Origin: a virus | Taxonomy: Duplodnaviria > Heunggongvirae > Uroviricota > Caudoviricetes | Length of the DNA: 34,339 bases | Direction: 5' to 3' (one strand) | Virus record (IMG/VR): IMGVR_UViG_2648501437_000013 | In this document: piece after piece, positions 1-34,339 of the stretch | How positions within the stretch are numbered: position 1 is the first letter of the stretch | How the letters are laid out: each line of letters begins with the position of its first letter | Position numbers and translations under genes: made by a program | Notes under the pieces: generated by a model | Told to the model about the DNA's origin: nothing | The model's database searches: none | The model's input: only the letters and a program-made list of their open reading frames with translations

Positions 1-111
1 TGGCGATTGCCAGCCGCCTTTCTCGTTCCATCCTGGAACTGTGTCTTACCGACACATTGTCATCCTGACGCCGATAAGATACATGATTTAAAATGATAGG
101 TAAACACTTAC

Positions 112-3450: not shown

Positions 3451-3998
3451 TACACAATTTCAGAGGGTAATTTAAAAAATCCGTACTTATTACGTGCCTT
3501 AAAGAAGCATTGCATCATTAAGTTTGTGTCATATAAGGCACTATGTGCTTTGGCATGATCGTATATAAAGCCAAGAGAGAAGGCCAACTCTTCAAGGCGG
3601 GGACGTTTACCGTCTTCTGTGGCCCACAGGGAAAATAGAGTGTCAATCAATGGGATGTCTGGAAGCGAAAAACCGTAACTTTTCAGCTCATGCCTAATAA
3701 ACGGAATATCGAACGCTTCGCCGTTGTGGGCTATCCAAATATCGGAAGAAGAGAGATACGAAGCGACAGATGAAGCGTGATCGGCTAGTAACGGCTCGGC
3801 GGCTAAATCTTCAAGACTGATGCCGTGTACCGCTTGCGCTTTCGGATCGATACTGCGACGCGGGTTGAACCGCATTACAAAACTATCAACCATTGTCTGT
3901 GTCTCAATTTCGTACTTCACCATTGCGATTTCAATGATTTTATGGCCTGAGAGGAAATCAAGACCTGTTGATTCGATGTCCACCCCTGTAGCAATCAC
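3450..3998 (-). CDS. DnaQ-like DEDDh 3'-5' exonuclease (Pol III epsilon-like proofreading exonuclease)
   Basis: Exo I (VDIESTGL), Exo II (HNGEAFDIPF) and Exo III (HSALYD) motifs in canonical order. Confidence 0.75.
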   Translation of the reverse strand: MIATGVDIESTGLDFLSGHKIIEIAMVKYEIETQTMVDSFVMRFNPRRSIDPKAQAVHGISLEDLAAEPLLADHASSVASYLSSSDIWIAHNGEAFDIPFIRHELKSYGFSLPDIPLIDTLFSLWATEDGKRPRLEELAFSLGFIYDHAKAHSALYDTNLMMQCFFKARNKYGFFKLPSEIV

Positions 3999-4789
3999 TT
4001 TTTATCTCCTTTTACTGGTCGTTTGGACGGTGTGAAGATGGCAGCTTCAACATCCCACCCCCTCAAAATTCGCTGCGAGATAATGGTCGCAGTCAAGCCA
4101 ACCTCTCTAGCCCATTCGGTAATTCGCTGAGTTCTGCCGCGACACTCGATCAGACGCTTACTATCTCGGTTGGCATACGTGTCGACGCTGGCGTTAAGCG
4201 CGCGATCTAATGGCCACCCTTTCTTGATTCGATAGTGAAGAGTTGATGTCTGAATCCCGGCTCTTTTAGCCCATTGTGAGAGAGTCAGCTTTTCCCCCTT
4301 ATGCTCCAAAATTAAGTTTGAACGCGTGTTATTGGCCTGTTCTTCAAAAGTCGCCCATCTGCAATTTTCAGGTTCGTAGTCACCATTCACATCTTTGCGA
4401 TCAAGAGACATCCCCTCTGGTCGCTCTCCCATGTCAGCATAAAAGTTTTCAAATATTTGCCACCGCTCGCAGACTTTGATACCTCGGCCGCCATACCACT
4501 TATAGGCGTGATGGGTTGGTTTTTCACATCGTTCCCGCATACCCAGCCATATACGATAAATTGGCGTTTTACTCATACCATGAGGCTTTACGCTACGGCG
4601 ATGTGCGTTGTAGACACAGCCACACGATATTGTCGCCCCGTGATTTAGCTTCCCGTAACTAACCAGGCAGGTGTTGCCGCAATCGCAGATGCAATCCCAA
4701 AGTCGCCCTTGTTTGTTTGAAATACCGGAATATTTAAGTGCAACCAACTTTCCAAAACGTTTACCTGTTATGTCTACCGGTTGTCCCAT
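3995..4789 (-). CDS. HNH-like (degenerate) homing-endonuclease-like DNA-binding protein with N-terminal Cys cluster and two C-terminal HTH-like repeats
   Basis: Cys-rich N-terminus (CICDCG...SCGC); YGGRGIKVCERW and LDRKDVNGDYEPENCRWATFEEQANN resemble the NxRWAT..EN tail of HNH_3-type endonucleases; repeats LTLSQWAKRAGIQTSTLHYRIKKGW and QRITEWAREVGLTATIISQRILRGW look like HTH modules. Function assignment from memory only. Confidence 0.45.
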   Translation of the reverse strand: MGQPVDITGKRFGKLVALKYSGISNKQGRLWDCICDCGNTCLVSYGKLNHGATISCGCVYNAHRRSVKPHGMSKTPIYRIWLGMRERCEKPTHHAYKWYGGRGIKVCERWQIFENFYADMGERPEGMSLDRKDVNGDYEPENCRWATFEEQANNTRSNLILEHKGEKLTLSQWAKRAGIQTSTLHYRIKKGWPLDRALNASVDTYANRDSKRLIECRGRTQRITEWAREVGLTATIISQRILRGWDVEAAIFTPSKRPVKGDKK

Positions 4790-5279: not shown

Positions 5280-5924
5280 CTAATGAACGGTCACTCGGCC
5301 ACAGAACCGGTTTTCTATCTTTTCTACAGCGTTATCTAGCATTCTCATCACTGATCTGGCTCTTGCTTCAACCGTGCGATATCGGTTGGAAACGACGAAG
5401 GTTTGCAGATCTCCCCTTTGCGGATGCAGGTGAATTTTTGTCAGTTCCCCGCACATCAACGCATCAATACGAGCAACATACAGACGGTCTAATGATGCTC
5501 GTTGTGATCGCAAGTAATCTCGCTCTGAGAGAGCGACTCCCGGGCGTAAGCCAGCAATGGCGTTAAAGTTTGAAATGGCAGTTTTGTGGCAAAACTTTTC
5601 GATATCGAGGGCTAACTCAATACACCGCTCTTCATTTGTATGGCCGACCAAATCCAACGTGTAGGCCATAACATCAGCAGGTGTGCGATCGATAACAAAG
5701 CCTTCAACACCACGCGTAAGTAGCTCTATGTGCTTTGCTATTTCCATTTGAATCTGAAGCCGCTCATATAGAGGCATAGACTCACCTACTCGAACACCGA
5801 GGCGGCTCATCAAACTTCCGACACCAGCATCCACGTAAGGGATTCCGTAATGTTTGTCGATATATTTAGCCAGGGTTGTTTTCCCACTGCCCTGAGCACC
5901 AGTGATCCCAATCCGGTAATCCAT
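5280..5924 (-). CDS. P-loop nucleotide kinase, thymidylate-kinase-like
   Basis: Walker A GAQGSGKTT near N-terminus followed by VIDRTPADVMAYT, resembling the DRY/AYQ region of dTMP kinases; start overlaps the DHFR stop. Confidence 0.5.
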   Translation of the reverse strand: MDYRIGITGAQGSGKTTLAKYIDKHYGIPYVDAGVGSLMSRLGVRVGESMPLYERLQIQMEIAKHIELLTRGVEGFVIDRTPADVMAYTLDLVGHTNEERCIELALDIEKFCHKTAISNFNAIAGLRPGVALSERDYLRSQRASLDRLYVARIDALMCGELTKIHLHPQRGDLQTFVVSNRYRTVEARARSVMRMLDNAVEKIENRFCGRVTVH

Positions 5925-6400
5925 TACGACCTTCTGTATACGATCTGCGAAAAGCCAGGCTCTTCCTCGCTGGCTCGTTGGGTATAAGCTGTTTCAACAG
6001 ACACAAAGCCTAAGTTACGCATCATGCTTGCCGGGAAGAATGCATCAGCGTTTGGTACATCAACGCCGATGTGGGAGAGCCAAATCTCTTCAACATGCGG
6101 CATGAATAGCGAGTAAATTTGTTCCCCGCCAATCACCCACACAGGCTCTGGTAATCGCAACACATCATCCACACCAGCAGGGTAGAATCCATTTGGTACA
6201 AAGCCATGAGAGCGCGTCAAAACGAGATTATGACGCTCTGGAAGAGGGCGTTTGAGACTTTCCATCGTTTTACGTCCCATAACGACAGTGGCGTTTTTGG
6301 TGAGTCTCTTAAATAGCTTCAGATCGGTAGAGCAACGCCAGGGCAGTTCGTTCGCTATACCGATCTCATAATTACGGCCAACAGCAGCTATCATCTTCAT
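5924..6400 (-). CDS. folA: Dihydrofolate reductase
   Basis: 158 aa; IAAVGRNYEIG...LPW, GRKT, VIGGEQIY motifs; GAGGTG RBS; sits next to thyA as in phage dTMP modules. Confidence 0.8.
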   Translation of the reverse strand: MKMIAAVGRNYEIGIANELPWRCSTDLKLFKRLTKNATVVMGRKTMESLKRPLPERHNLVLTRSHGFVPNGFYPAGVDDVLRLPEPVWVIGGEQIYSLFMPHVEEIWLSHIGVDVPNADAFFPASMMRNLGFVSVETAYTQRASEEEPGFSQIVYRRS

Positions 6401-6858
6401 TTGCCCACCTCATAGATGACCGGTCTATGATGAGAGTCAGCTAAAGCGGCACGGAGTCGAGGATCGTGCACCAGCGCAGCGATAAGCAGATCGCCTTTAT
6501 GCTCCGCTAATGTGCGCTTAATATGCTTCTCATAACTGATGCCATTCGGTACGAGATGAAGCCAGTCGTAATCAACACCAAAATCTTTCAGCCATCGTTT
6601 AGTGGGCGCTTCAAGAGTTTCAGAGCGGCTACTGATAAGCACCACTTCAGCCCCTGAGCGAGCAAAACCACGCAACATACGGCTGGTGGGGAAAATGAGG
6701 TCATCACCGGCAATGAGCTGGCCTGCATCCGCGTCAAATACAGATTTACGATGGCTGGTATTTGCCAGCACACCTTCAATTTCGCATAAGACATACATAC
6801 CTCTTGCCATATCACACCGCCACTGGAACCTTGATCCACGGTAGAGGGTCATAGCCAA
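6397..6858 (-). CDS. Hypothetical protein (start uncertain; alternative Met at ~6810)
   Basis: ORF between thyA and DHFR, translationally coupled to DHFR (ATGA overlap); no clear family assignment. Confidence 0.45.
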   Translation of the reverse strand: MAMTLYRGSRFQWRCDMARGMYVLCEIEGVLANTSHRKSVFDADAGQLIAGDDLIFPTSRMLRGFARSGAEVVLISSRSETLEAPTKRWLKDFGVDYDWLHLVPNGISYEKHIKRTLAEHKGDLLIAALVHDPRLRAALADSHHRPVIYEVGK

Positions 6859-7942
6859 GAATCAGAATATCGTCCCATTTGAAATCATCCAGCTCAGACC
6901 ATTCATGAGGGAAAATAACGACCGGATCTGAATGCTCTGGAGCCTGTCGTTTCATTAGCTCACACACACTTTCCATGTGGTTATTGTACAAATGCACGTC
7001 AAAGCCAAAATGCACAAAGGCACCGGCCATGTGACCCGTAATCTTCGCGAGAAAATGAGTGAGAATGCCATAACCAGCAATATTGAATGGCATACCAACA
7101 AAAGTGTCTACGCTACGCTGTACGAGGCAGGAGTTGAGGATGCGTTTGGGGATTCCAAGTTCATCCAGTTCAGCTTCAGTAACACTGCCGTCCATCTCCA
7201 GATCGTATAGCATCTTGGTGTAGATAGACTCGTAACCGAGGCGACTGTGTTGAAGACCAATGTCAGTTGCCATCGTTAAACGGGTTTCAAAATCAAGCTC
7301 ACGACTCCACAAAGAGAAGACAAAGTGGCAAGGTGGCAGTTTCATATCCTCAAGCTCGCCTACGTTCCATGCGTTAAGCATGATGCGACGATCGGTAGGG
7401 TTCGTGCGCAGTGTATCGACAATACGCTGTAGCTGATCGATTTCACGGGACAGCACTACGCGATCTTCACTGATACCTAGGTATCCCTCGACTTTGTACC
7501 CGCGTTCACGGAAAGTAGCGATCTTGCTCAGATATTCACTATGGCTCACGATGCGGGTATCTTCCCATCGACGCCACTGCTTACCGTAAACTGGCCCCAA
7601 ATCGCCATTCTCATCGGCCCATGCATCCCAAATCTTAACGCCGTTATCCTTGAGAAATTGAATGTTACCCGTGCCTTTCAGATACCACTCAAGTTCGACA
7701 AGTAGTGGCTTAAGATTTACCGCCTTTCCAGAAATAAGCGGCACAGTCCCACCAGTAAGCATGTAGTAAGAGGGAACGTAGCAGGTGCTTAAAGTACCAG
7801 TGCCTGTGCGATCATCAGCCTGCACGCCGCTTTTAAGCACCGTCTCAATAACTTTTGCATACGATGCGTTTGTTACCTGACCGTTCGTATGCTCACGATT
7901 CAAAAGGAGTGACACAAAAACCTCACAAAGATAAGTAACCAC
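6812..7942 (-). CDS. thyA: Thymidylate synthase (ThyA) with ~45-aa internal insertion; annotated start uncertain
   Basis: DRTGTGT, LPPCH (catalytic Cys) and QRSVD...MPFNIAGY motifs; insertion between LPPCH and QRS blocks relative to E. coli ThyA; track start (GTG at 7942) lies inside a nested palindrome, so the true start is probably 10-25 codons downstream. Confidence 0.8.
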   Translation of the reverse strand: MVTYLCEVFVSLLLNREHTNGQVTNASYAKVIETVLKSGVQADDRTGTGTLSTCYVPSYYMLTGGTVPLISGKAVNLKPLLVELEWYLKGTGNIQFLKDNGVKIWDAWADENGDLGPVYGKQWRRWEDTRIVSHSEYLSKIATFRERGYKVEGYLGISEDRVVLSREIDQLQRIVDTLRTNPTDRRIMLNAWNVGELEDMKLPPCHFVFSLWSRELDFETRLTMATDIGLQHSRLGYESIYTKMLYDLEMDGSVTEAELDELGIPKRILNSCLVQRSVDTFVGMPFNIAGYGILTHFLAKITGHMAGAFVHFGFDVHLYNNHMESVCELMKRQAPEHSDPVVIFPHEWSELDDFKWDDILILGYDPLPWIKVPVAV

Positions 7943-7958
7943 TTATTCATTGTGTGAG
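7922..7958. promoter_or_regulatory. Nested palindrome CTCACA-aag-ATAAGT-aacc-ACTTAT-tcat-TGTGAG at the thyA operon head
   Basis: Read directly; the inner element belongs to the recurrent ATA(A/G)GTAA...TTAC(C/T)TAT family. Confidence 0.45.
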
Positions 7959-7991
7959 TTTACATTTATTGAGAGAACAAGACCAGATAGA

Positions 7992-8024
7992 TAAAAAAAT
8001 GGTGGCCATAGGCCACCAAAAACG
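7992..8024 (-). terminator. Rho-independent terminator (TGGTGGCC-ata-GGCCACCA + T7 on minus strand)
   Basis: 8-bp GC-rich stem with A7/T7 run; downstream of gene 8087..8956. Confidence 0.75.
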
Positions 8025-8086
8025 GATAGTTGTTTCAGAAATTTAACGCGCCGACACAATATACATAGATAGATAACTACCTACAA

Positions 8087-8956
8087 TTATTTTTTGATCA
8101 TTTCGTACATTGCTGAGGCTTTAGCTTGCTCAACAAAGGAGGATAAATCGACATCACTATAGGTTGGAGACTTCAGAATTTTTCCATCGGAAATTCGAAA
8201 ACCGATCATCTTATCGGTGCCATCAGCATGGCGAAATCCCAGGTCTGAAGAGTCGTATTTGCAGTTGGCCACAGCCTGGCGACGTTCCTCGACATCAGCA
8301 GGCCATAATTTTGTCATGTTAGACCGATGAATTTCGCCAACCAGCTCGACGACATTGATACCGAGGAAATCAGCCAGTCGATAGGTCATCATGCACGCCA
8401 CATAGATTTTGTTCATGACACGGCGCAGTTCCTGAATCAGCTCAGAATCCTTAACAGTCTTGTTCTCAAGTTTATCTGCCAGCTCTTCGAGCATACATGA
8501 CGCCTCACGAGCTTCCTGAAATGGCATTGCCATATCATCGAAAACAGTGTTACCAGGCACAAAAATTGTCTGCATAAAGCGATCAATGCTCTGTTCCTGC
8601 GTGTAATAGGTCATGCCGGTAGAAATGCCGCCTTTGATGGCGACCATCGTACCAACACCAACGTATAAAAAGTCGGCCATTGCATCCAGCAGTTGCTCAA
8701 TATCCCCATTCATTGCGGCTGGAATACCTTCCACTACAGCTTCTTCATGAATCAGGCTTGCACGGAGACGAAGCAGCTCTGGTGTCGGCATAACGCGTCT
8801 CGGATGCTGGAAGAGTTCATGAAACTGATCGACCATCTTGTAAATACTTTCAGTGGCTACACCATGGCCTTCATGCAACTCATATGGTTCTGGCTTAAAT
8901 CCAATGAGTCGATCGGTGGCAAGTTTCAGGTGGTCAGTCAGTTTGGTAAAGTTCAT
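8087..8956 (-). CDS. Hypothetical protein; N-terminal region possibly MazG/HisE-like all-alpha NTP pyrophosphohydrolase
   Basis: 289-aa ORF; HEEAVVEG...DIEQLLDAMADFLYV resembles the EExxE/DxxxD metal-binding helices of MazG-like enzymes. Weak, memory-based. Confidence 0.4.
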   Translation of the reverse strand: MNFTKLTDHLKLATDRLIGFKPEPYELHEGHGVATESIYKMVDQFHELFQHPRRVMPTPELLRLRASLIHEEAVVEGIPAAMNGDIEQLLDAMADFLYVGVGTMVAIKGGISTGMTYYTQEQSIDRFMQTIFVPGNTVFDDMAMPFQEAREASCMLEELADKLENKTVKDSELIQELRRVMNKIYVACMMTYRLADFLGINVVELVGEIHRSNMTKLWPADVEERRQAVANCKYDSSDLGFRHADGTDKMIGFRISDGKILKSPTYSDVDLSSFVEQAKASAMYEMIKK

Positions 8957-9033: not shown

Positions 9034-10176
9034 TTACAGGTCTGCAAACTGGCTTAGAGAAGCCTTATCCACGGTAGAATCGATCTGACCTACCAGATAT
9101 GTGCTTTGCTCTGCCTCTTGTGGTGCAATTTGCAGTGTGTCGGTTAACAACCACTTGTTCATCCAGACCAGCGGATCAGTGGTAACTTCTGGAAATAAAG
9201 CCTTCAGGCCAAGACGATTCATAGCCAGATTGGTGCGGTATTTTACATAGGTTTTGAGAATATCCGCGTTTAAACCAATCATCGAACCGTCTTTGAAGAG
9301 ATAGTCTGCCCAGTTCATTTCTTGTTCGGCGACTGATTTCATGGTGTCGTAAATGACGTTTTCTTCATCAGCAGCAATCTCTTTCCACAATAAACCTTCT
9401 CGACCGGTACGCATGAAGCGGATCATGCGTTCAGTTCCTTCGCAATGCAGAGCTTCATCACGGGCAATAAAGCGCATAATTTTGGTGTTACCCTCAAGCA
9501 ACTTCCGTTCGCCAAAGGCAAACGTACATGCAAAACTTACATAGAAACGGATCGCCTCAAGCGCATTAATGGACACCAACGTGCGGAAAAGCTGACGATG
9601 CAAAGGGTATGGCTCCCAGCCATATTCATTTACGTACAGACGTTCAAACTCCTTCTCACCTAACGACTGGCGCTCGCATGTCATCCCATAAAGCCTGTCA
9701 TATTCAGCAGAGATACTGATCGCTCGGTTGATGATTTCTTCATCCGTAACAATACCGTCAAAAACAATGCTCGGATCGTCCACCATGCCACGAATAATGT
9801 GGGTGTAGCTACGGCTATGGATAGTCTCAGAGAAAGACCACGTTTCAACCCACGTTTCCAGTTCAGGAATAGAGATAAGCGGCAGCAGCGTTGCATTTGG
9901 GCTACGTCCCTGAACTGAATCGAGCAACGTTTGATAACGGAGATTACTCAGGAAAATGTGGCGTTCGTGGTCCCGCAGCTTCGTATTGAAGTCGATGCGA
10001 TCGCTCGAAATATCAACTTCTTCCGGCCGCCAGAAGAAAGACAATTGACGTTCAATCAACTTTTCAAAATCACGGTATTTTTGCTGATCGTAACGTGCCA
10101 CGTTGACAGATTGTCCGAGGAACATAGGCTCTTTGGTTGCATCATTAGCACCCAAACGGAACGTTGAATATGACAT
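9034..10176 (-). CDS. nrdB: Ribonucleotide reductase class Ia beta subunit
   Basis: Near-collinear similarity to E. coli NrdB from MSYSTF... to ...YLVGQIDS (di-iron and tyrosyl-radical regions); start set at ATG 10176 with AAGGAAAAACAC leader. Confidence 0.9.
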
Positions 10177-21628: not shown

Positions 21629-21683
21629 GTGTTTTTCCTTTTGTGGTTAGTGTTTACTTATTTTGTTAGTTATGAATAGGCGA

Positions 21684-23267: not shown

Positions 23268-23283
23268 ATAAGTAAGTGCTTAT
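23268..23283. promoter_or_regulatory. Palindromic motif ATAAGTAAGTGCTTAT upstream of the SPFH operon
   Basis: Arms ATAAG/CTTAT; recurrent motif family. Confidence 0.4.
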
Positions 23284-23327: not shown

Positions 23328-24401
23328 TTACTCTTCTACTGACTCGGTGGGGTTGTCTTTTGCTCTTCGGTCGTCGATTGCCTGCAAAGCCGCAATGATT
23401 TCAGCCAGTGGCTTCTCCCGATACATCTCGACGATCTGCGATTTGGTGTATTTCTTGTCACCAATTTCAACTCGCCCGCTGGCGTTCTTTGGCAGGTATC
23501 CTTCTTCCAGCATGTACTCGACGAGCGATTCGATAACGTCGAGGCCACGAGTAGGATCGAAGTAGAATTTCCAGGTGCATTTGCCATACGGTGGTGCAAC
23601 TTTGTTTTTGATGCATTCTGCGCCTACGTCCTGGCCGATCTTCTCTTTACCATCCTTCATCACCGATGCACCAAGACGGATACGTACAGAAGCGTAGAAC
23701 TTCGGTGAATCTCCACCTGGCGACGTAGTAGGGTCGCCAAACATTACACCGATTTTTGTGCGAACCTGATTCAAGAAGATGATGCAGGCGTTGTATTTGC
23801 GTGCCCACAAAGCCAGAGTAGGGAAGTTCGCACTCGTCGCACGAGCCAGTGCCGTATTGTCGTTCATGTTTAGCTGATCTTTGTCTTTGGCAGTGCCTTC
23901 AGCCATCTTTTCGAACTTCTCGGCTTTGGAGTTCGGAACCATAGACGCAAGAGAGTCAGCCACGATACAGATTGGTGCTGATTCGGGGATAAGCTCTTCA
24001 TCACGAACCAATTTAAGTATTGTGCCGATCAACTCTACAGAGTCTTCGAAGGTATCTGGCTGCTTGTATACCCACTGACCGTCATCCTCATCTGCGTTCA
24101 GGCCATTGGCGACAGCCAGGCCAACGTCAAAACTGTTTTCATGATCGAGGAATACCGCCAGACCATCTTGTTTTTGAGCGGAGATCATCGCTGCTGTTGC
24201 AAGGAACGTTTTCCCTGCACTTGGAGGACCGAATACTTCGACGATACGACCACATGGGAAGCCGCCATCGTAACGACCAGAAATAGCTTTGTTTAACGGT
24301 GGAAAGCCTGTATCAATCCAATGAGTTACTTTCTGAATTTCGTCGTTGCTACCGATTTTCTTTTTCAGAGCAAGTGCCAGTGCGGATTTTCCTTTTGCCA
24401 T
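23328..24401 (-). CDS. RecA-superfamily recombinase (UvsX/RecA-like)
   Basis: Walker A VEVFGPPSAGKTF, Walker B-like VFLDHENSFD; ~357 aa as for RecA/UvsX. Confidence 0.8.
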   Translation of the reverse strand: MAKGKSALALALKKKIGSNDEIQKVTHWIDTGFPPLNKAISGRYDGGFPCGRIVEVFGPPSAGKTFLATAAMISAQKQDGLAVFLDHENSFDVGLAVANGLNADEDDGQWVYKQPDTFEDSVELIGTILKLVRDEELIPESAPICIVADSLASMVPNSKAEKFEKMAEGTAKDKDQLNMNDNTALARATSANFPTLALWARKYNACIIFLNQVRTKIGVMFGDPTTSPGGDSPKFYASVRIRLGASVMKDGKEKIGQDVGAECIKNKVAPPYGKCTWKFYFDPTRGLDVIESLVEYMLEEGYLPKNASGRVEIGDKKYTKSQIVEMYREKPLAEIIAALQAIDDRRAKDNPTESVEE

Positions 24402-26786: not shown

Positions 26787-26815
26787 GATAGATCAGTGCT
26801 TACTTATTATCTATC
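26787..26815. promoter_or_regulatory. Palindrome GATAGAT-cagtgcttacttatt-ATCTATC upstream of the SSB gene
   Basis: 7-bp outer arms; inner part matches the recurrent ATAAGTAAG core. Confidence 0.4.
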
Positions 26816-32371: not shown

Positions 32372-32391
32372 ATCGTAAGTGGTTACTTATC
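32372..32391. promoter_or_regulatory. Palindromic motif ATCGTAAGTGGTTACTTATC upstream of the AAA+ ATPase gene
   Basis: Matches the 7931..7946 variant (ATAAGTAACCACTTAT). Confidence 0.4.
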
Positions 32392-33908: not shown

Positions 33909-34339
33909 TGGATTTGCCCCTATATTTCCAGACATCTGTTATCACTTAACCCATTACAAGCCTGCTGCCGCAGATATTCCCGTGGCGAGCGATAACCCAG
34001 CGCACTATGCGGATGCCATTCGTTATAATGCTCGAACGCCTCTGCAAGGTTCTTTGCTGCCGTTAACCCGTCTGGTTTGGGCATGATACTGATGTAGTCA
34101 CGCTTTATCGTTTTCACGAAGCTCTCTGCTATTCCGTTACTCTCCGGACTCCGCACCGCCGTGTTCTTCGGTTCAAGTCCCAACATCCGGGCGAACTGGC
34201 GTGTTTCATTAGCCCGGTAGCATGAACCATTATCCGTCAGCCACTCCACTGGAGACGACGGAAGATCGTTGCCGAAGCGGCGTTCCACCGCTCCCAGCAT
34301 GACGTCCTGTACTGTTTCACTGTTGAAGCCGCCGGTAGT
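33909..34339 (-). mobile_element. IS2 (IS3 family), right ~430 bp including the right inverted repeat; truncated by the window edge
   Basis: Terminal TGGATTTGCCCCTATATTTCCAGACATCTGTTATCACTTAA matches the IS2 right inverted repeat as I recall it; adjacent ORF is the C-terminus of the IS2 transposase. Confidence 0.85.
33920..34339 (-). CDS. insD: IS2 transposase OrfB (InsD), C-terminal part; 5' end lies beyond the window
   Basis: DDE integrase-type C-terminus ...[50 protein letters not shown]...; ORF is open to the window edge. Confidence 0.8.

What the first reader, a model, noticed from the sequence alone, without database searches (positions are those of the whole stretch)
6812..7958. ThyA homolog with a ~45-aa insertion and a palindrome overlapping its annotated start
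Catalytic ThyA motifs are intact (DRTGTGT, LPPCH, PFNIAGY with the dUMP-specifying Asn), but there is a ~45-residue insertion between the catalytic Cys and the QRS block relative to E. coli ThyA. The longest-ORF start lies inside the nested palindrome 7922-7958, so the true N-terminus is uncertain. ThyA-like enzymes in phages are sometimes hydroxymethylases feeding base hypermodification. The adjacent DHFR and the thymidylate-kinase-like gene argue for a canonical dTMP pathway, but the insertion could alter specificity or regulation.
Basis: partly seen in the sequence, partly recalled or inferred. Interest (0 to 1): 0.45.

Follow-up and report, generated by a model that had tools for sequence, protein, structure and literature searches.

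The report
Ordinary phage-plasmid thymidylate synthase with insertions
This is a normal dTMP-making thymidylate synthase (ThyA) of an SSU5-like phage-plasmid that carries two surface insertions shared with many phage enzymes, and the palindrome at its start is one copy of a regulatory-looking motif scattered between genes, so the finding is real but ordinary.

Summary
The window is the replication and nucleotide-metabolism module of an SSU5-like phage-plasmid, 96-98% identical to Escherichia phages Cyrano and CMS-2020a.

**The gene.** The ORF is a bona fide ThyA:
- Pfam PF00303 scores 2.4e-79 and the NCBIfam equivalog TIGR03284 is passed.
- BLASTP gives 4e-65 to E. coli ThyA, against 6e-5 to T4 dCMP hydroxymethylase and 0.023 to SPO1 dUMP hydroxymethylase.
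- All checked catalytic, dUMP-binding and folate-binding residues and the C-terminal PVAV are kept.

**The insertions.** There are two, not one.
- ins1 is 40 aa and homologous to the insertion in the solved Burkholderia thailandensis TS (PDB 3V8H).
- ins2 is 52 aa, a three-helix insert at the tip of the hairpin after the catalytic Cys, with no solved counterpart.
- Both are confidently folded and under purifying selection. Both also occur in the TS of SPN3US; related jumbo-phage TSs appear to carry them.

**The start.** The true start is GTG 7915 (GAGG Shine-Dalgarno), not the longest-ORF GTG 7942.

**The palindrome.** It lies upstream of the coding sequence. It is one copy of a dispersed intergenic motif, ATAAGT-N4-ACTTAT, with 11 copies in the window against 1.35 expected. 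It is probably an operator.

Nothing supports hydroxymethylase chemistry. Interest is low.

The parts
6812..7915 (-). thyA coding sequence, 367 aa, GTG start, TGA stop at 6812-6814
   Evidence: ORF. Same 1104-nt CDS annotated in Cyrano, SSU5, pEH4236 and K. pneumoniae AR_0129. PF00303 2.4e-79. TIGR03284 223 bits against a cutoff of 108.
7916..7942 (-). Nine-codon upstream extension of the longest ORF (GTG 7942); most likely untranslated leader
   Evidence: TAA directly precedes GTG 7942 and there is no SD. 1-nt indels in relatives break the frame here.
7921..7924 (-). Shine-Dalgarno GAGG, 5 nt upstream of GTG 7915; invariant in five relatives
   Evidence: Sequence. Invariant columns G167-G170 of alignment A3.
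7442..7561 (-). Insertion 1 (D119-E158, 40 aa against 6 in E. coli): strands and two short helices, conserved RGY
7142..7297 (-). Insertion 2 (L207-R258, 52 aa): three helices at the tip of the beta-hairpin after the catalytic Cys; invariant R212 and P256, near-invariant R258 and D251
   Evidence: Helices 209-225, 231-242 and 247-253, pLDDT 96-98. No Pfam or PDB match.
7328..7330 (-). Codon of catalytic Cys196 (E. coli C146) in LPPCH
   Evidence: Sequence. Invariant column in A1, A2 and A4.
7931..7946 (.). 16-bp palindrome ATAAGT-N4-ACTTAT, 15 nt upstream of the start codon; a copy of a dispersed intergenic motif and probably an operator
7919..7961 (.). Outer imperfect inverted repeat (arms 7919-7927 and 7953-7961) enclosing the 16-bp palindrome and overlapping the SD; not conserved outside the E. 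coli lineage
   Evidence: Absent at the aligned position in SSU5 and the Klebsiella plasmid. RNA fold z = 0.11.
8000..8018 (-). Intrinsic terminator after the MazG-like gene, which makes thyA the first gene of its own transcription unit
   Evidence: 8-bp stem with 6 GC pairs followed by a T-run. Conserved in all five relatives.
6397..6810 (-). HAD / PNKP-phosphatase-like 137-aa gene; starts 1 nt after the thyA stop
   Evidence: PF25109 1.7e-5, below the Pfam cutoff. phrog_5387, function unknown. Annotated in Cyrano.
5924..6400 (-). Dihydrofolate reductase; overlaps the HAD-like gene by 4 nt
   Evidence: PF00186 7.4e-35.
5280..5924 (-). P-loop (d)NMP-kinase-like gene; overlaps DHFR by 1 nt
   Evidence: AAA_28 1.5e-9. 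PHROG 'thymidylate kinase' 2.3e-10. All NCBIfam kinase hits are below their cutoffs.
8087..8956 (-). MazG-like NTP pyrophosphohydrolase upstream of thyA
   Evidence: PF01503 1.2e-8. phrog_671 4e-48.

Best explanation
The gene (6812-7915, minus strand, 367 aa) encodes a canonical folate-dependent thymidylate synthase. It should convert dUMP plus 5,10-methylene-THF to dTMP plus DHF.

**Operon context.** thyA is the first gene of a tightly packed operon: thyA, a HAD-like gene, DHFR and a P-loop kinase. The operon lies downstream of a MazG-like gene and class Ia ribonucleotide reductase. Together these look like a self-contained dTTP supply line for lytic replication of an SSU5-like phage-plasmid.

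**Insertions.** The enzyme differs from the 264-aa E. coli type by two insertions.
- ins1 (40 aa) has strands and two short helices. It is inherited from a TS lineage that includes the Burkholderia type with a solved structure.
- ins2 (52 aa) is three helices grafted onto the tip of the hairpin formed by the catalytic-Cys strand and the dimer-interface strand.
- Both are folded and under purifying selection, and neither replaces any active-site residue.
- I infer, but have not shown, that they form an accessory surface lobe. Such a lobe could stabilise the dimer or dock a partner enzyme. I do not think it changes the chemistry.

**Start and palindrome.** Translation starts at GTG 7915. The palindrome lies in the leader or promoter region. 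It is one copy of a 16-bp inverted repeat found in front of many transcription units of this phage family. Most likely it is the DNA site of a dimeric phage-plasmid regulator (inferred).
For: **Identity as TS**
- PF00303 2.4e-79.
- TIGR03284 equivalog 223 bits against a cutoff of 108.
- phrog_160 1.3e-95.
- PDB TS hits down to 1.3e-64.
- BLASTP to E. coli ThyA 4e-65.
- AF2 model pLDDT 94.7, pTM 0.93.
- Foldseek TM 0.94 (target-normalised) to E. coli TS.

**Residues kept**, E. coli numbering with window numbering in brackets: R21 (R36), K48 (K64), E58 (E74), I79/W80/W83 (I95/W96/W99), Y94 (Y110), R126/R127 (R176/R177), C146/H147 (C196/H197), Q165/R166/S167/D169 (Q266/R267/S268/D270), F176/N177 (F277/N278), H207/Y209 (H308/Y310), and the C-terminal PVAV.

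**Context**
- DHFR lies in the same translationally coupled operon.
- RNR alpha and beta and a MazG-like gene lie upstream.
- No hypermodification enzymes are in the window.

**Insertions**
- Defined.
- pN is 0.03-0.23 where pS is 0.58-0.92.
- ins1 is homologous to the 3V8H insertion.
- Both insertions are present in SPN3US TS, 39% identity in one alignment.
- They also occur in TSs on jumbo-phage-like contigs.
- BFVD jumbo-phage TS models match at query-normalised TM 0.83-0.87, against 0.68 for E. coli TS.

**Start codon**.

**Palindrome**
- 11 copies in the window against 1.35 expected, with 0 of 100 shuffles reaching 11.
- 23 copies in the Cyrano genome against 6.8 ± 2.7. Twenty of the 23 are intergenic, although only 13% of that genome is non-coding.
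- The copy upstream of thyA is conserved in SSU5, Enterobacter and Klebsiella relatives.
Against: - No enzymatic or genetic data exist for this protein or any ins2-bearing TS that I could find.
- dUMP hydroxymethylases also carry Asn at position 177, so that residue alone does not exclude them.
- The neighbouring MazG-like, HAD-like and kinase genes superficially resemble the dTTPase, dTMPase and dNMP-kinase set of hmU phages described in PMC8989533.
- I could not get model coordinates. The position of the insertions relative to the dimer interface and to each other is therefore inferred from topology and from published knowledge of TS, not measured.
- No sigma-70-like promoter was found between the terminator and the palindrome.
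- No protein that binds the palindrome has been identified.
Confidence: 0.85

Rival explanations
1. The protein is a dUMP (or dCMP) hydroxymethylase. It would feed a base-modification pathway in which the MazG-like, HAD-like and kinase neighbours deplete dTTP and dTMP and phosphorylate the modified nucleotide.
For: Phage TS homologues can be hydroxymethylases, and hmU phages combine such an enzyme with a dTTPase, a dTMPase and a dNMP kinase (PMC8989533). The window has a MazG-like NTP pyrophosphohydrolase, a HAD phosphatase-like gene and a P-loop kinase next to thyA.
Against: - BLASTP to SPO1 gp29 is only 0.023 (19% identity) and to T4 gp42 6e-5, against 4e-65 to E. coli ThyA.
- In alignment A4, gp29 lacks DRTGTGT and W80, has N in place of H147 and Q165, and has a different C-terminus. 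The window protein keeps the TS state at each of these.
- Position 177 is Asn, not Asp, which excludes dCMP specificity (for the rule).
- The TS C-terminal tail PVAV is intact.
- DHFR is co-transcribed; I infer it is only needed if DHF is produced.
- No 5-HMUDK, aGPT-Pplase, glucosyltransferase or dCMP deaminase is in the window.
- Hundreds of these replicons are assembled in routine sequencing (692 PLSDB records). I read this as indirect evidence for ordinary DNA.
Confidence: 0.04
2. The insertions are functionally neutral structural decorations. They are retained only because removing them would destabilise the fold, and they have no partner-binding or regulatory role.
For: - The middle of ins2 varies greatly in sequence and length (29-65 aa) among homologues. 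Only the anchoring ends are conserved.
- Pairwise identity within the clade is 35-42% in the insertions against 62% in the core.
- Neither insertion resembles a known domain.
Against: - pN is well below pS in both insertions.
- R212 and P256 are invariant in 49 of 49 insertion-bearing sequences.
- The insertions are retained across lineages as distant as SSU5-like phage-plasmids and SPN3US-like jumbo phages.
- Both are predicted with very high confidence.
Confidence: 0.3
3. The nested palindrome acts at the RNA level. A 5'-UTR hairpin would sequester the Shine-Dalgarno sequence and control thyA translation.
For: The outer arms pair CUCACA with UGUGAG, which covers part of the GAGG SD.
Against: - The predicted fold is no more stable than shuffled sequence: -10.6 against -10.9 ± 2.5 kcal/mol, z = 0.11.
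- The outer arms are not conserved at the aligned position in SSU5, Enterobacter or Klebsiella relatives.
- The conserved part is the AT-rich 16-bp inner palindrome, which recurs genome-wide in intergenic DNA at variable distances from start codons. That pattern fits a DNA site better.
Confidence: 0.08
4. Translation starts at the longest-ORF GTG (7942), giving a 376-aa protein whose start codon lies inside the palindrome.
For: It is the first start codon after the in-frame TAA.
Against: - There is no purine-rich SD upstream of 7942.
- GAGG lies 5 nt before GTG 7915 and is invariant in relatives, which have TTG at that position.
- 1-nt indels upstream break the frame in relatives.
- All database annotations use the 367-aa form.
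Confidence: 0.04

Closest known systems
E. coli ThyA (EC 2.1.1.45; PDB 2TSC, 1TYS and others)
   Same: Same fold (target-normalised TM 0.94). About 46% identity over aligned core positions (120 identities). All catalytic, dUMP-binding and folate-binding residues and the C-terminal tail are kept.
   Different: Three additions relative to E. coli: a 17-aa N-terminal extension, a 40-aa segment where E. coli has 6 residues (103-108 region), and a 52-aa insertion at the V154-G157 hairpin tip.
Burkholderia thailandensis thymidylate synthase (PDB 3V8H; NCBIfam NF010393 / PRK13821 type)
   Different: It has no counterpart of ins2. The alignments stop at the hairpin. Overall identity is 28%.
Jumbo-phage thymidylate synthases (Salmonella phage SPN3US AEP84062.1; Erwinia phages Machina, Parshik and Huxley; Cronobacter CR5; Pseudomonas 201phi2-1 B3FJL1)
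   Same: SPN3US TS carries both insertions at the same positions, with the conserved E-x-R start and the LD...IPxR end of ins2. Identity is 39% in one contiguous alignment. The other listed phage TSs align over 95-98% of the query at 38-41% identity. Two BFVD jumbo-phage models, including 201phi2-1 B3FJL1, match at query-normalised TM 0.83-0.87.
   Different: The middle of ins2 and most of ins1 diverge: 12-22% identity to the window in the metagenomic insertion-bearing homologues. Some are longer (457-471 aa). They sit in lytic jumbo phages, not in a phage-plasmid.
T4 gp42 dCMP hydroxymethylase and SPO1 gp29 dUMP hydroxymethylase
   Different: BLASTP E-values are only 6e-5 and 0.023. The hydroxymethylases lack the TS folate and closure residues and the TS C-terminus, and have neither insertion.
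Dispersed operator sets of phage-plasmids, such as phage P1 C1 operators (comparison from my own knowledge, for the palindrome only)
   Same: Many copies of one short site lie in intergenic regions in front of transcription units across the whole replicon.
   Different: The sequence is unrelated. The site here is a symmetric 16-mer. No binding protein is identified, and some copies are followed by terminator-like hairpins.

Membership tests
Thymidylate synthase ThyA (PF00303 / TIGR03284, EC 2.1.1.45) | Scores above the curated family thresholds | tested here: met
   PF00303 266.7 bits against 24.3. TIGR03284 equivalog 223.3 bits against 108.35.
Thymidylate synthase ThyA (PF00303 / TIGR03284, EC 2.1.1.45) | Catalytic Cys in P-C-H, plus the dUMP phosphate-binding arginines (R21, R126', R127', R166) | tested here: met
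   C196/H197, R36, R176/R177 and R267 are invariant columns in A1 and A2.
Thymidylate synthase ThyA (PF00303 / TIGR03284, EC 2.1.1.45) | Asn177 (uracil specificity) and H207/Y209 (deoxyribose 3'-OH) | tested here: met
   N278, H308 and Y310. Rule for position 177 as in PMC8670742.
Thymidylate synthase ThyA (PF00303 / TIGR03284, EC 2.1.1.45) | Folate-binding and hydride-transfer set (E58, I79, W80, W83, Y94, D169, F176) and the C-terminal closing tail | tested here: met
   E74, I95, W96, W99, Y110, D270, F277 and C-terminal PVAV.
Thymidylate synthase ThyA (PF00303 / TIGR03284, EC 2.1.1.45) | TS fold | tested here: met
Thymidylate synthase ThyA (PF00303 / TIGR03284, EC 2.1.1.45) | Catalysis of dUMP + CH2-THF to dTMP + DHF; obligate homodimer | not testable with these tools
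   Needs an enzyme assay or thyA complementation. The co-transcribed DHFR is consistent with DHF production.
dCMP hydroxymethylase (T4 gp42 type) | Asp at the position of E. coli N177; short protein without the TS C-terminal tail; close similarity to gp42 | tested here: not met
dUMP hydroxymethylase (SPO1 gp29 type) | Similarity to gp29 and its substitutions (no DRTGTGT, no W80, N for H147 and for Q165, long divergent C-terminus) | tested here: not met
   BLASTP E 0.023, 19% identity. The window protein has the TS state at every one of these positions.
dUMP hydroxymethylase (SPO1 gp29 type) | Pathway context: dTTPase, dTMPase, dCMP deaminase and dNMP kinase, with no need for DHFR | tested here: inconclusive
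   MazG-like, HAD-like and kinase genes are present, but their specificities are unknown. DHFR is present, and no dCMP deaminase is found in the window.
Insertion-bearing phage TS subgroup (SSU5-like phage-plasmids and SPN3US-like jumbo phages; informal group defined here) | ins1 after W-R-x-W and ins2 at the hairpin tip, with invariant Arg (R212) and Pro (P256) and near-invariant R258 and D251 | tested here: met
   49 insertion-bearing sequences in A2. SPN3US pairwise alignment. BFVD query-normalised TM 0.83-0.87.

The most novel reading that the evidence does not exclude
ins2, possibly together with ins1, is a phage-specific accessory module of thymidylate synthase. It is shared by SSU5-like phage-plasmids and nucleus-forming-type jumbo phages. 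It would mediate something the host enzyme does not do. Candidates are docking into a phage dNTP-synthesis complex (DHFR, RNR, kinase), an extended dimer interface that prevents mixing with host ThyA subunits, or escape from host control of TS.
Probability: 0.2. Interest if true: 0.4.

Novelty: already known. Interest (0 to 1): 0.17.

Why it matters
It matters little for discovery. The gene is correctly annotated as thymidylate synthase in hundreds of SSU5-like plasmids and phages. A 99%-identical protein cluster has 1,101 member sequences, and 692 PLSDB records match at the DNA level.

Three modest points are useful:
- The start codon and the real anatomy (two insertions) are now fixed.
- ins2 defines an uncharacterised, apparently phage-restricted structural variant of a classic drug-target enzyme, with no solved structure.
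- The palindrome points to a genome-wide set of regulatory sites in SSU5-like phage-plasmids, whose lysogeny and lysis control is poorly described.

Tried and rejected
- **Is ins2 a known domain?** Pfam on ins1 and ins2 alone gave nothing, or Sedlin_N at E 0.11. A PDB profile search gave only BcsG at E about 1. A profile search of 1.84 billion representatives gave 6 hits. Four are TSs or TS fragments. Two are marginal non-TS hits, one on a sigma-70 region-4 HTH at 2.5e-4. I judge that hit to be chance, because the abundant sigma factors were otherwise not hit.
- **RNA hairpin at the leader.** Not more stable than shuffled sequence.
- **Rfam and tRNA scans of the window.** Nothing found.
- **Sigma-70 promoter scan between the terminator and thyA.** No site on the coding strand.
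- **afdb50 fold library.** Unavailable.
- **Literature.** Searches for TS insertions in phages, SSU5, pHCM2 or SPN3US TS found only annotations and nothing on the insertions.
- **Intein or intron remnant for ins2.** Considered and dropped. It is in frame, only 52 aa, well folded, under purifying selection and ancient. From my own knowledge, it also does not coincide with the T4 td intron site.
Full report
**Where the window comes from.** The region 6700-8100 is 96-98% identical to Escherichia phages Cyrano, CMS-2020a and PhiR41_1, and 78% identical to Salmonella phage SSU5. A 401-nt piece spanning the thyA 5' end and its upstream region matches 692 PLSDB plasmids. These are mostly 105-115 kb non-mobilizable replicons of Klebsiella, Escherichia, Enterobacter, Salmonella and Citrobacter. 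The window is therefore the replication and nucleotide-metabolism module of an SSU5-like phage-plasmid.

Its genes, all on the minus strand around the finding, are:
- RNase H, a Dam-like methyltransferase and a DnaQ-like exonuclease
- a P-loop kinase, DHFR, a HAD-like protein, ThyA and a MazG-like pyrophosphohydrolase
- RNR beta and alpha, RuvC and SbcCD
- RepA, an SPFH protein, RecA, a 5'-3' exonuclease, gp32-like SSB, Pol III alpha and a CobS/CobT-like pair

**Checking the observation.** The ORF 6812..7942(-) of 376 aa exists and contains DRTGTGT, LPPCH and PFNIAGY. Alignment to solved TS structures breaks into three blocks. These are query 27-127, 165-212 and 270-376 in 376-aa numbering, matching E. 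coli 3-102, 106-153 and 160-264. So there are two insertions, not one.

In the numbering of the 367-aa protein:
- ins1 is D119-E158, 40 residues where E. coli has 6.
- ins2 is L207-R258, 52 residues where E. coli has none or one.

ins1 was missed. The nested inverted repeat is real: inner arms 7931-7936/7941-7946 and outer arms 7919-7927/7953-7961.

**The start codon.** GTG 7942 is immediately preceded by an in-frame TAA and has no Shine-Dalgarno sequence. GTG 7915 has GAGG 5 nt upstream. Cyrano, SSU5, Enterobacter pEH4236 and K. pneumoniae AR_0129 all annotate a 1104-nt CDS starting at the position of 7915, with TTG in the last three. In the five-way alignment of the upstream region, GAGG and the start position are invariant. 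Two 1-nt indels lie between the palindrome and the start, so that stretch is not coding. The CDS is 6812-7915, and the palindrome lies wholly upstream of it.

**What the protein is.**
- Family thresholds. It passes Pfam PF00303 (2.4e-79) and the NCBIfam equivalog TIGR03284 (223 bits, cutoff 108).
- Similarity. BLASTP to E. coli ThyA gives 4e-65, with 120 identities across the aligned core.
- Residues. Every residue I know to matter in E. coli TS is kept: R21, K48, E58, I79, W80, W83, Y94, R126, R127, C146, H147, Q165, R166, S167, D169, F176, N177, H207, Y209 and the C-terminal tail (PVAV).
- Predicted structure. An AlphaFold2 model built on 65 homologues has mean pLDDT 94.7 and pTM 0.93.

**Hydroxymethylase alternative.** I fetched the two experimentally characterised phage hydroxymethylases and compared them directly.
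- T4 gp42 gives 6e-5 (27% identity over 75 aa). SPO1 gp29 gives 0.023 (19% identity).
- In the joint alignment gp29 lacks DRTGTGT and W80. It has Asn in place of H147 and Q165, Leu where TS has Ile in PFNI, and a long unrelated C-terminus.
- gp42 lacks the TS C-terminal region.
- Neither has ins1 or ins2. gp29's similar length (383 aa) comes from its C-terminus.
- The window protein has the TS state everywhere.
- DHFR lies in the same operon: the thyA stop and the HAD-like start are 1 nt apart, HAD and DHFR overlap by 4 nt, and DHFR and the kinase overlap by 1 nt.
- From established TS chemistry, DHFR is needed only when the one-carbon transfer oxidises THF to DHF.
- The MazG-like, HAD-like and kinase neighbours superficially recall the dTTPase, dTMPase and dNMP-kinase set of hmU phages (PMC8989533), so I kept this as a rival. 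No dCMP deaminase, 5-HMUDK, aGPT-Pplase or glycosyltransferase is in the window. I put this rival at about 4%.

**The insertions.**
- Both are predicted with high confidence (10-residue block means 93-98).
  - ins1 contains strands 117-124, 141-146 and 152-159 and short helices 125-130 and 132-137.
  - ins2 is three helices: 209-225, 231-242 and 247-253.
- ins1 has a solved precedent.
  - A 66-aa query centred on it hits only PDB 3V8H (Burkholderia thailandensis TS), at E 1.5e-5. The alignment is gap-poor and of equal length, and shares the RG[YF] motif.
- ins2 has no solved or curated counterpart. A profile of ins2 run against 1.84 billion representative proteins found six hits. Four are TSs or TS fragments with the match at the same position.
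- Conservation across 49 insertion-bearing homologues:
  - R212 and P256 are invariant; R258 and D251 are nearly so.
  - The middle of ins2 varies from 29 to 65 residues.
  - Every sequence with ins2 also has ins1. Some have ins1 only.
- Selection. Between the window and SSU5, Enterobacter or Klebsiella relatives, synonymous sites are near saturation (pS 0.58-0.92). pN is 0.03-0.23 in the insertions, so both are under purifying selection. ins2 evolves roughly 1.5-2.4 times faster than the core.

**Who else has them.**
- All SSU5-like phage-plasmid TSs (356-378 aa) carry them. These come from Escherichia, Salmonella, Klebsiella, Enterobacter, Raoultella, Providencia, Morganella and Xenorhabdus.
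- Outside that clade, the nearest phage relatives by tblastn are the jumbo phages SPN3US, SEGD1, Erwinia Machina, Parshik, Huxley, Wellington and Asesino, Cronobacter CR5 and Proteus phage 7. They align at 38-41% identity over 95-98% of the query.
- SPN3US TS aligns in one piece at 39% identity. It has RELSIDERL at the start of ins2 and MDALEIPRRIL at its end.
- BFVD models of jumbo-phage TSs, including 201phi2-1, reach query-normalised TM 0.83-0.87, against 0.68 for E. coli TS. The extra parts are therefore matched structurally.
- Two distant metagenomic members lie on 104-356 kb contigs with phage-like gene content.
- The architecture is thus an old, apparently phage-associated TS variant, not a peculiarity of this gene.
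- I found no paper that discusses it.

**How it most likely works.**
- Shown: the sequence, residues and fold are those of a TS, and the gene sits in a dTTP-supply operon.
- Inferred: it makes dTMP and DHF. DHFR would recycle the DHF. RNR would feed the pathway, and perhaps the MazG-like enzyme as a dUTP-to-dUMP step. The kinase would carry the product on.
- ins2 is grafted onto the turn between the strand that starts at the catalytic Cys and the next strand. That next strand is LSCQLYQRS in E. coli, which from my knowledge of the TS literature lies in the dimer interface.
- Along the strand, the turn is about ten residues from the Cys. I therefore expect ins2 at the edge of the dimer interface, distant from the active site.
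- In that position it would act as a structural or docking lobe, not as a specificity element. This is inference; I had no access to model coordinates.

**The palindrome.**
- Frequency. ATAAGT-N4-ACTTAT with at most 2 mismatches occurs 11 times in the window, against 1.35 expected (0 of 100 shuffles reach 11). Nine of the 11 copies are intergenic.
- Genome-wide. In the complete genome of the near-identical phage Cyrano it occurs 23 times, against 6.8 ± 2.7 in shuffles. Twenty of the 23 are intergenic, although only 13% of that genome is non-coding.
- Position. In Cyrano, most intergenic copies lie 16-130 nt upstream of the next start codon, in both structural and replication modules. Examples are thyA, the Dam-like gene, nrdA, sbcD, uvsY, gp32, parB, the tail genes and the fibre gene.
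- Spacing. For thyA and the Dam-like gene the gap to the start codon is the same 15 nt.
- Conservation. The copy upstream of thyA is conserved with 2 mismatches in SSU5, Enterobacter and Klebsiella relatives. Those relatives also carry a second copy just after the MazG-like stop.
- RNA-level reading. As RNA the region folds no better than shuffled sequence (z = 0.11), and the outer arms are lineage-specific.
- Best reading (inferred). It is the DNA site of a dimeric regulator that controls many transcription units, in the manner of dispersed operators in other phage-plasmids.
- Caveats. No sigma-70-like promoter was detected on the coding strand. Some copies are followed by terminator-like hairpins. 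The exact role is therefore open.

**Verdict.** The gene is already correctly annotated in hundreds of records. Two things remain uncharacterised: the function of ins2, and the protein that reads the dispersed palindrome. Interest is low (0.17).

Noticed in passing
window 96-111, 1271-1286, 1652-1667, 2315-2330, 7931-7946, 21646-21661, 23268-23283, 26792-26807, 32375-32390 (intergenic); 3475-3490 and 9175-9190 (in ORFs): A dispersed 16-bp palindrome, ATAAGT-N4-ACTTAT. It has 11 copies in the window against 1.35 expected. In the full Cyrano genome it has 23 copies against 6.8 ± 2.7, and 20 of the 23 are intergenic. Most intergenic copies lie 16-130 nt upstream of start codons in both structural and replication modules. 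It is probably the site of a genome-wide regulator of SSU5-like phage-plasmids.
   Followed up: yes
window about 8066-8084: A degenerate second copy of the palindrome directly after the MazG-like stop codon. SSU5, Enterobacter and Klebsiella relatives have a 1-mismatch copy at this place. The thyA upstream region is therefore bracketed by two sites with the terminator between them.
   Followed up: partly
window 3995-4789 (-): A 264-aa HNH endonuclease gene (phrog_374, 2.1e-79) sits between the DnaQ-like exonuclease and the next gene. It is absent at this position in the otherwise collinear phage Cyrano, so it is probably a free-standing homing endonuclease insertion.
   Followed up: partly
window 6397-6810 (-): A 137-aa HAD / PNKP-phosphatase-like gene is wedged between thyA and DHFR and is translationally coupled to both. 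Its substrate is unknown (phrog_5387, function unknown; Pfam hit below cutoff). A nucleotidase inside a dTMP-synthesis operon is odd.
   Followed up: no
window 8087-8956 (-): In the 289-aa MazG-like protein, only residues 42-106 match the PRA-PH domain. About 180 C-terminal residues have no Pfam or NCBIfam assignment.
   Followed up: no
window 33920-34300 (-): A 126-aa ORF with an integrase-core (rve_3 / rve) fragment at the edge of the window. It is probably part of an IS element inserted in the phage-plasmid.
   Followed up: no
window 23328-24401 (-) versus L012 5065-7404: The window's RecA ORF is 1,074 nt. Cyrano annotates a 2,340-nt RecA CDS at the corresponding place. The Cyrano gene may carry an insertion (an intein or a fused ORF) that the window lacks. 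This was not examined.
   Followed up: no
window 7142-7225 (C-terminal part of ins2): The ins2 profile gave one marginal hit (E 2.5e-4) to the sigma-70 region-4 helix-turn-helix of an unrelated protein. The ...EAELDELGIPKR segment resembles the first helix and turn of an HTH. It is a single hit among very abundant sigma factors, so probably chance.
   Followed up: partly
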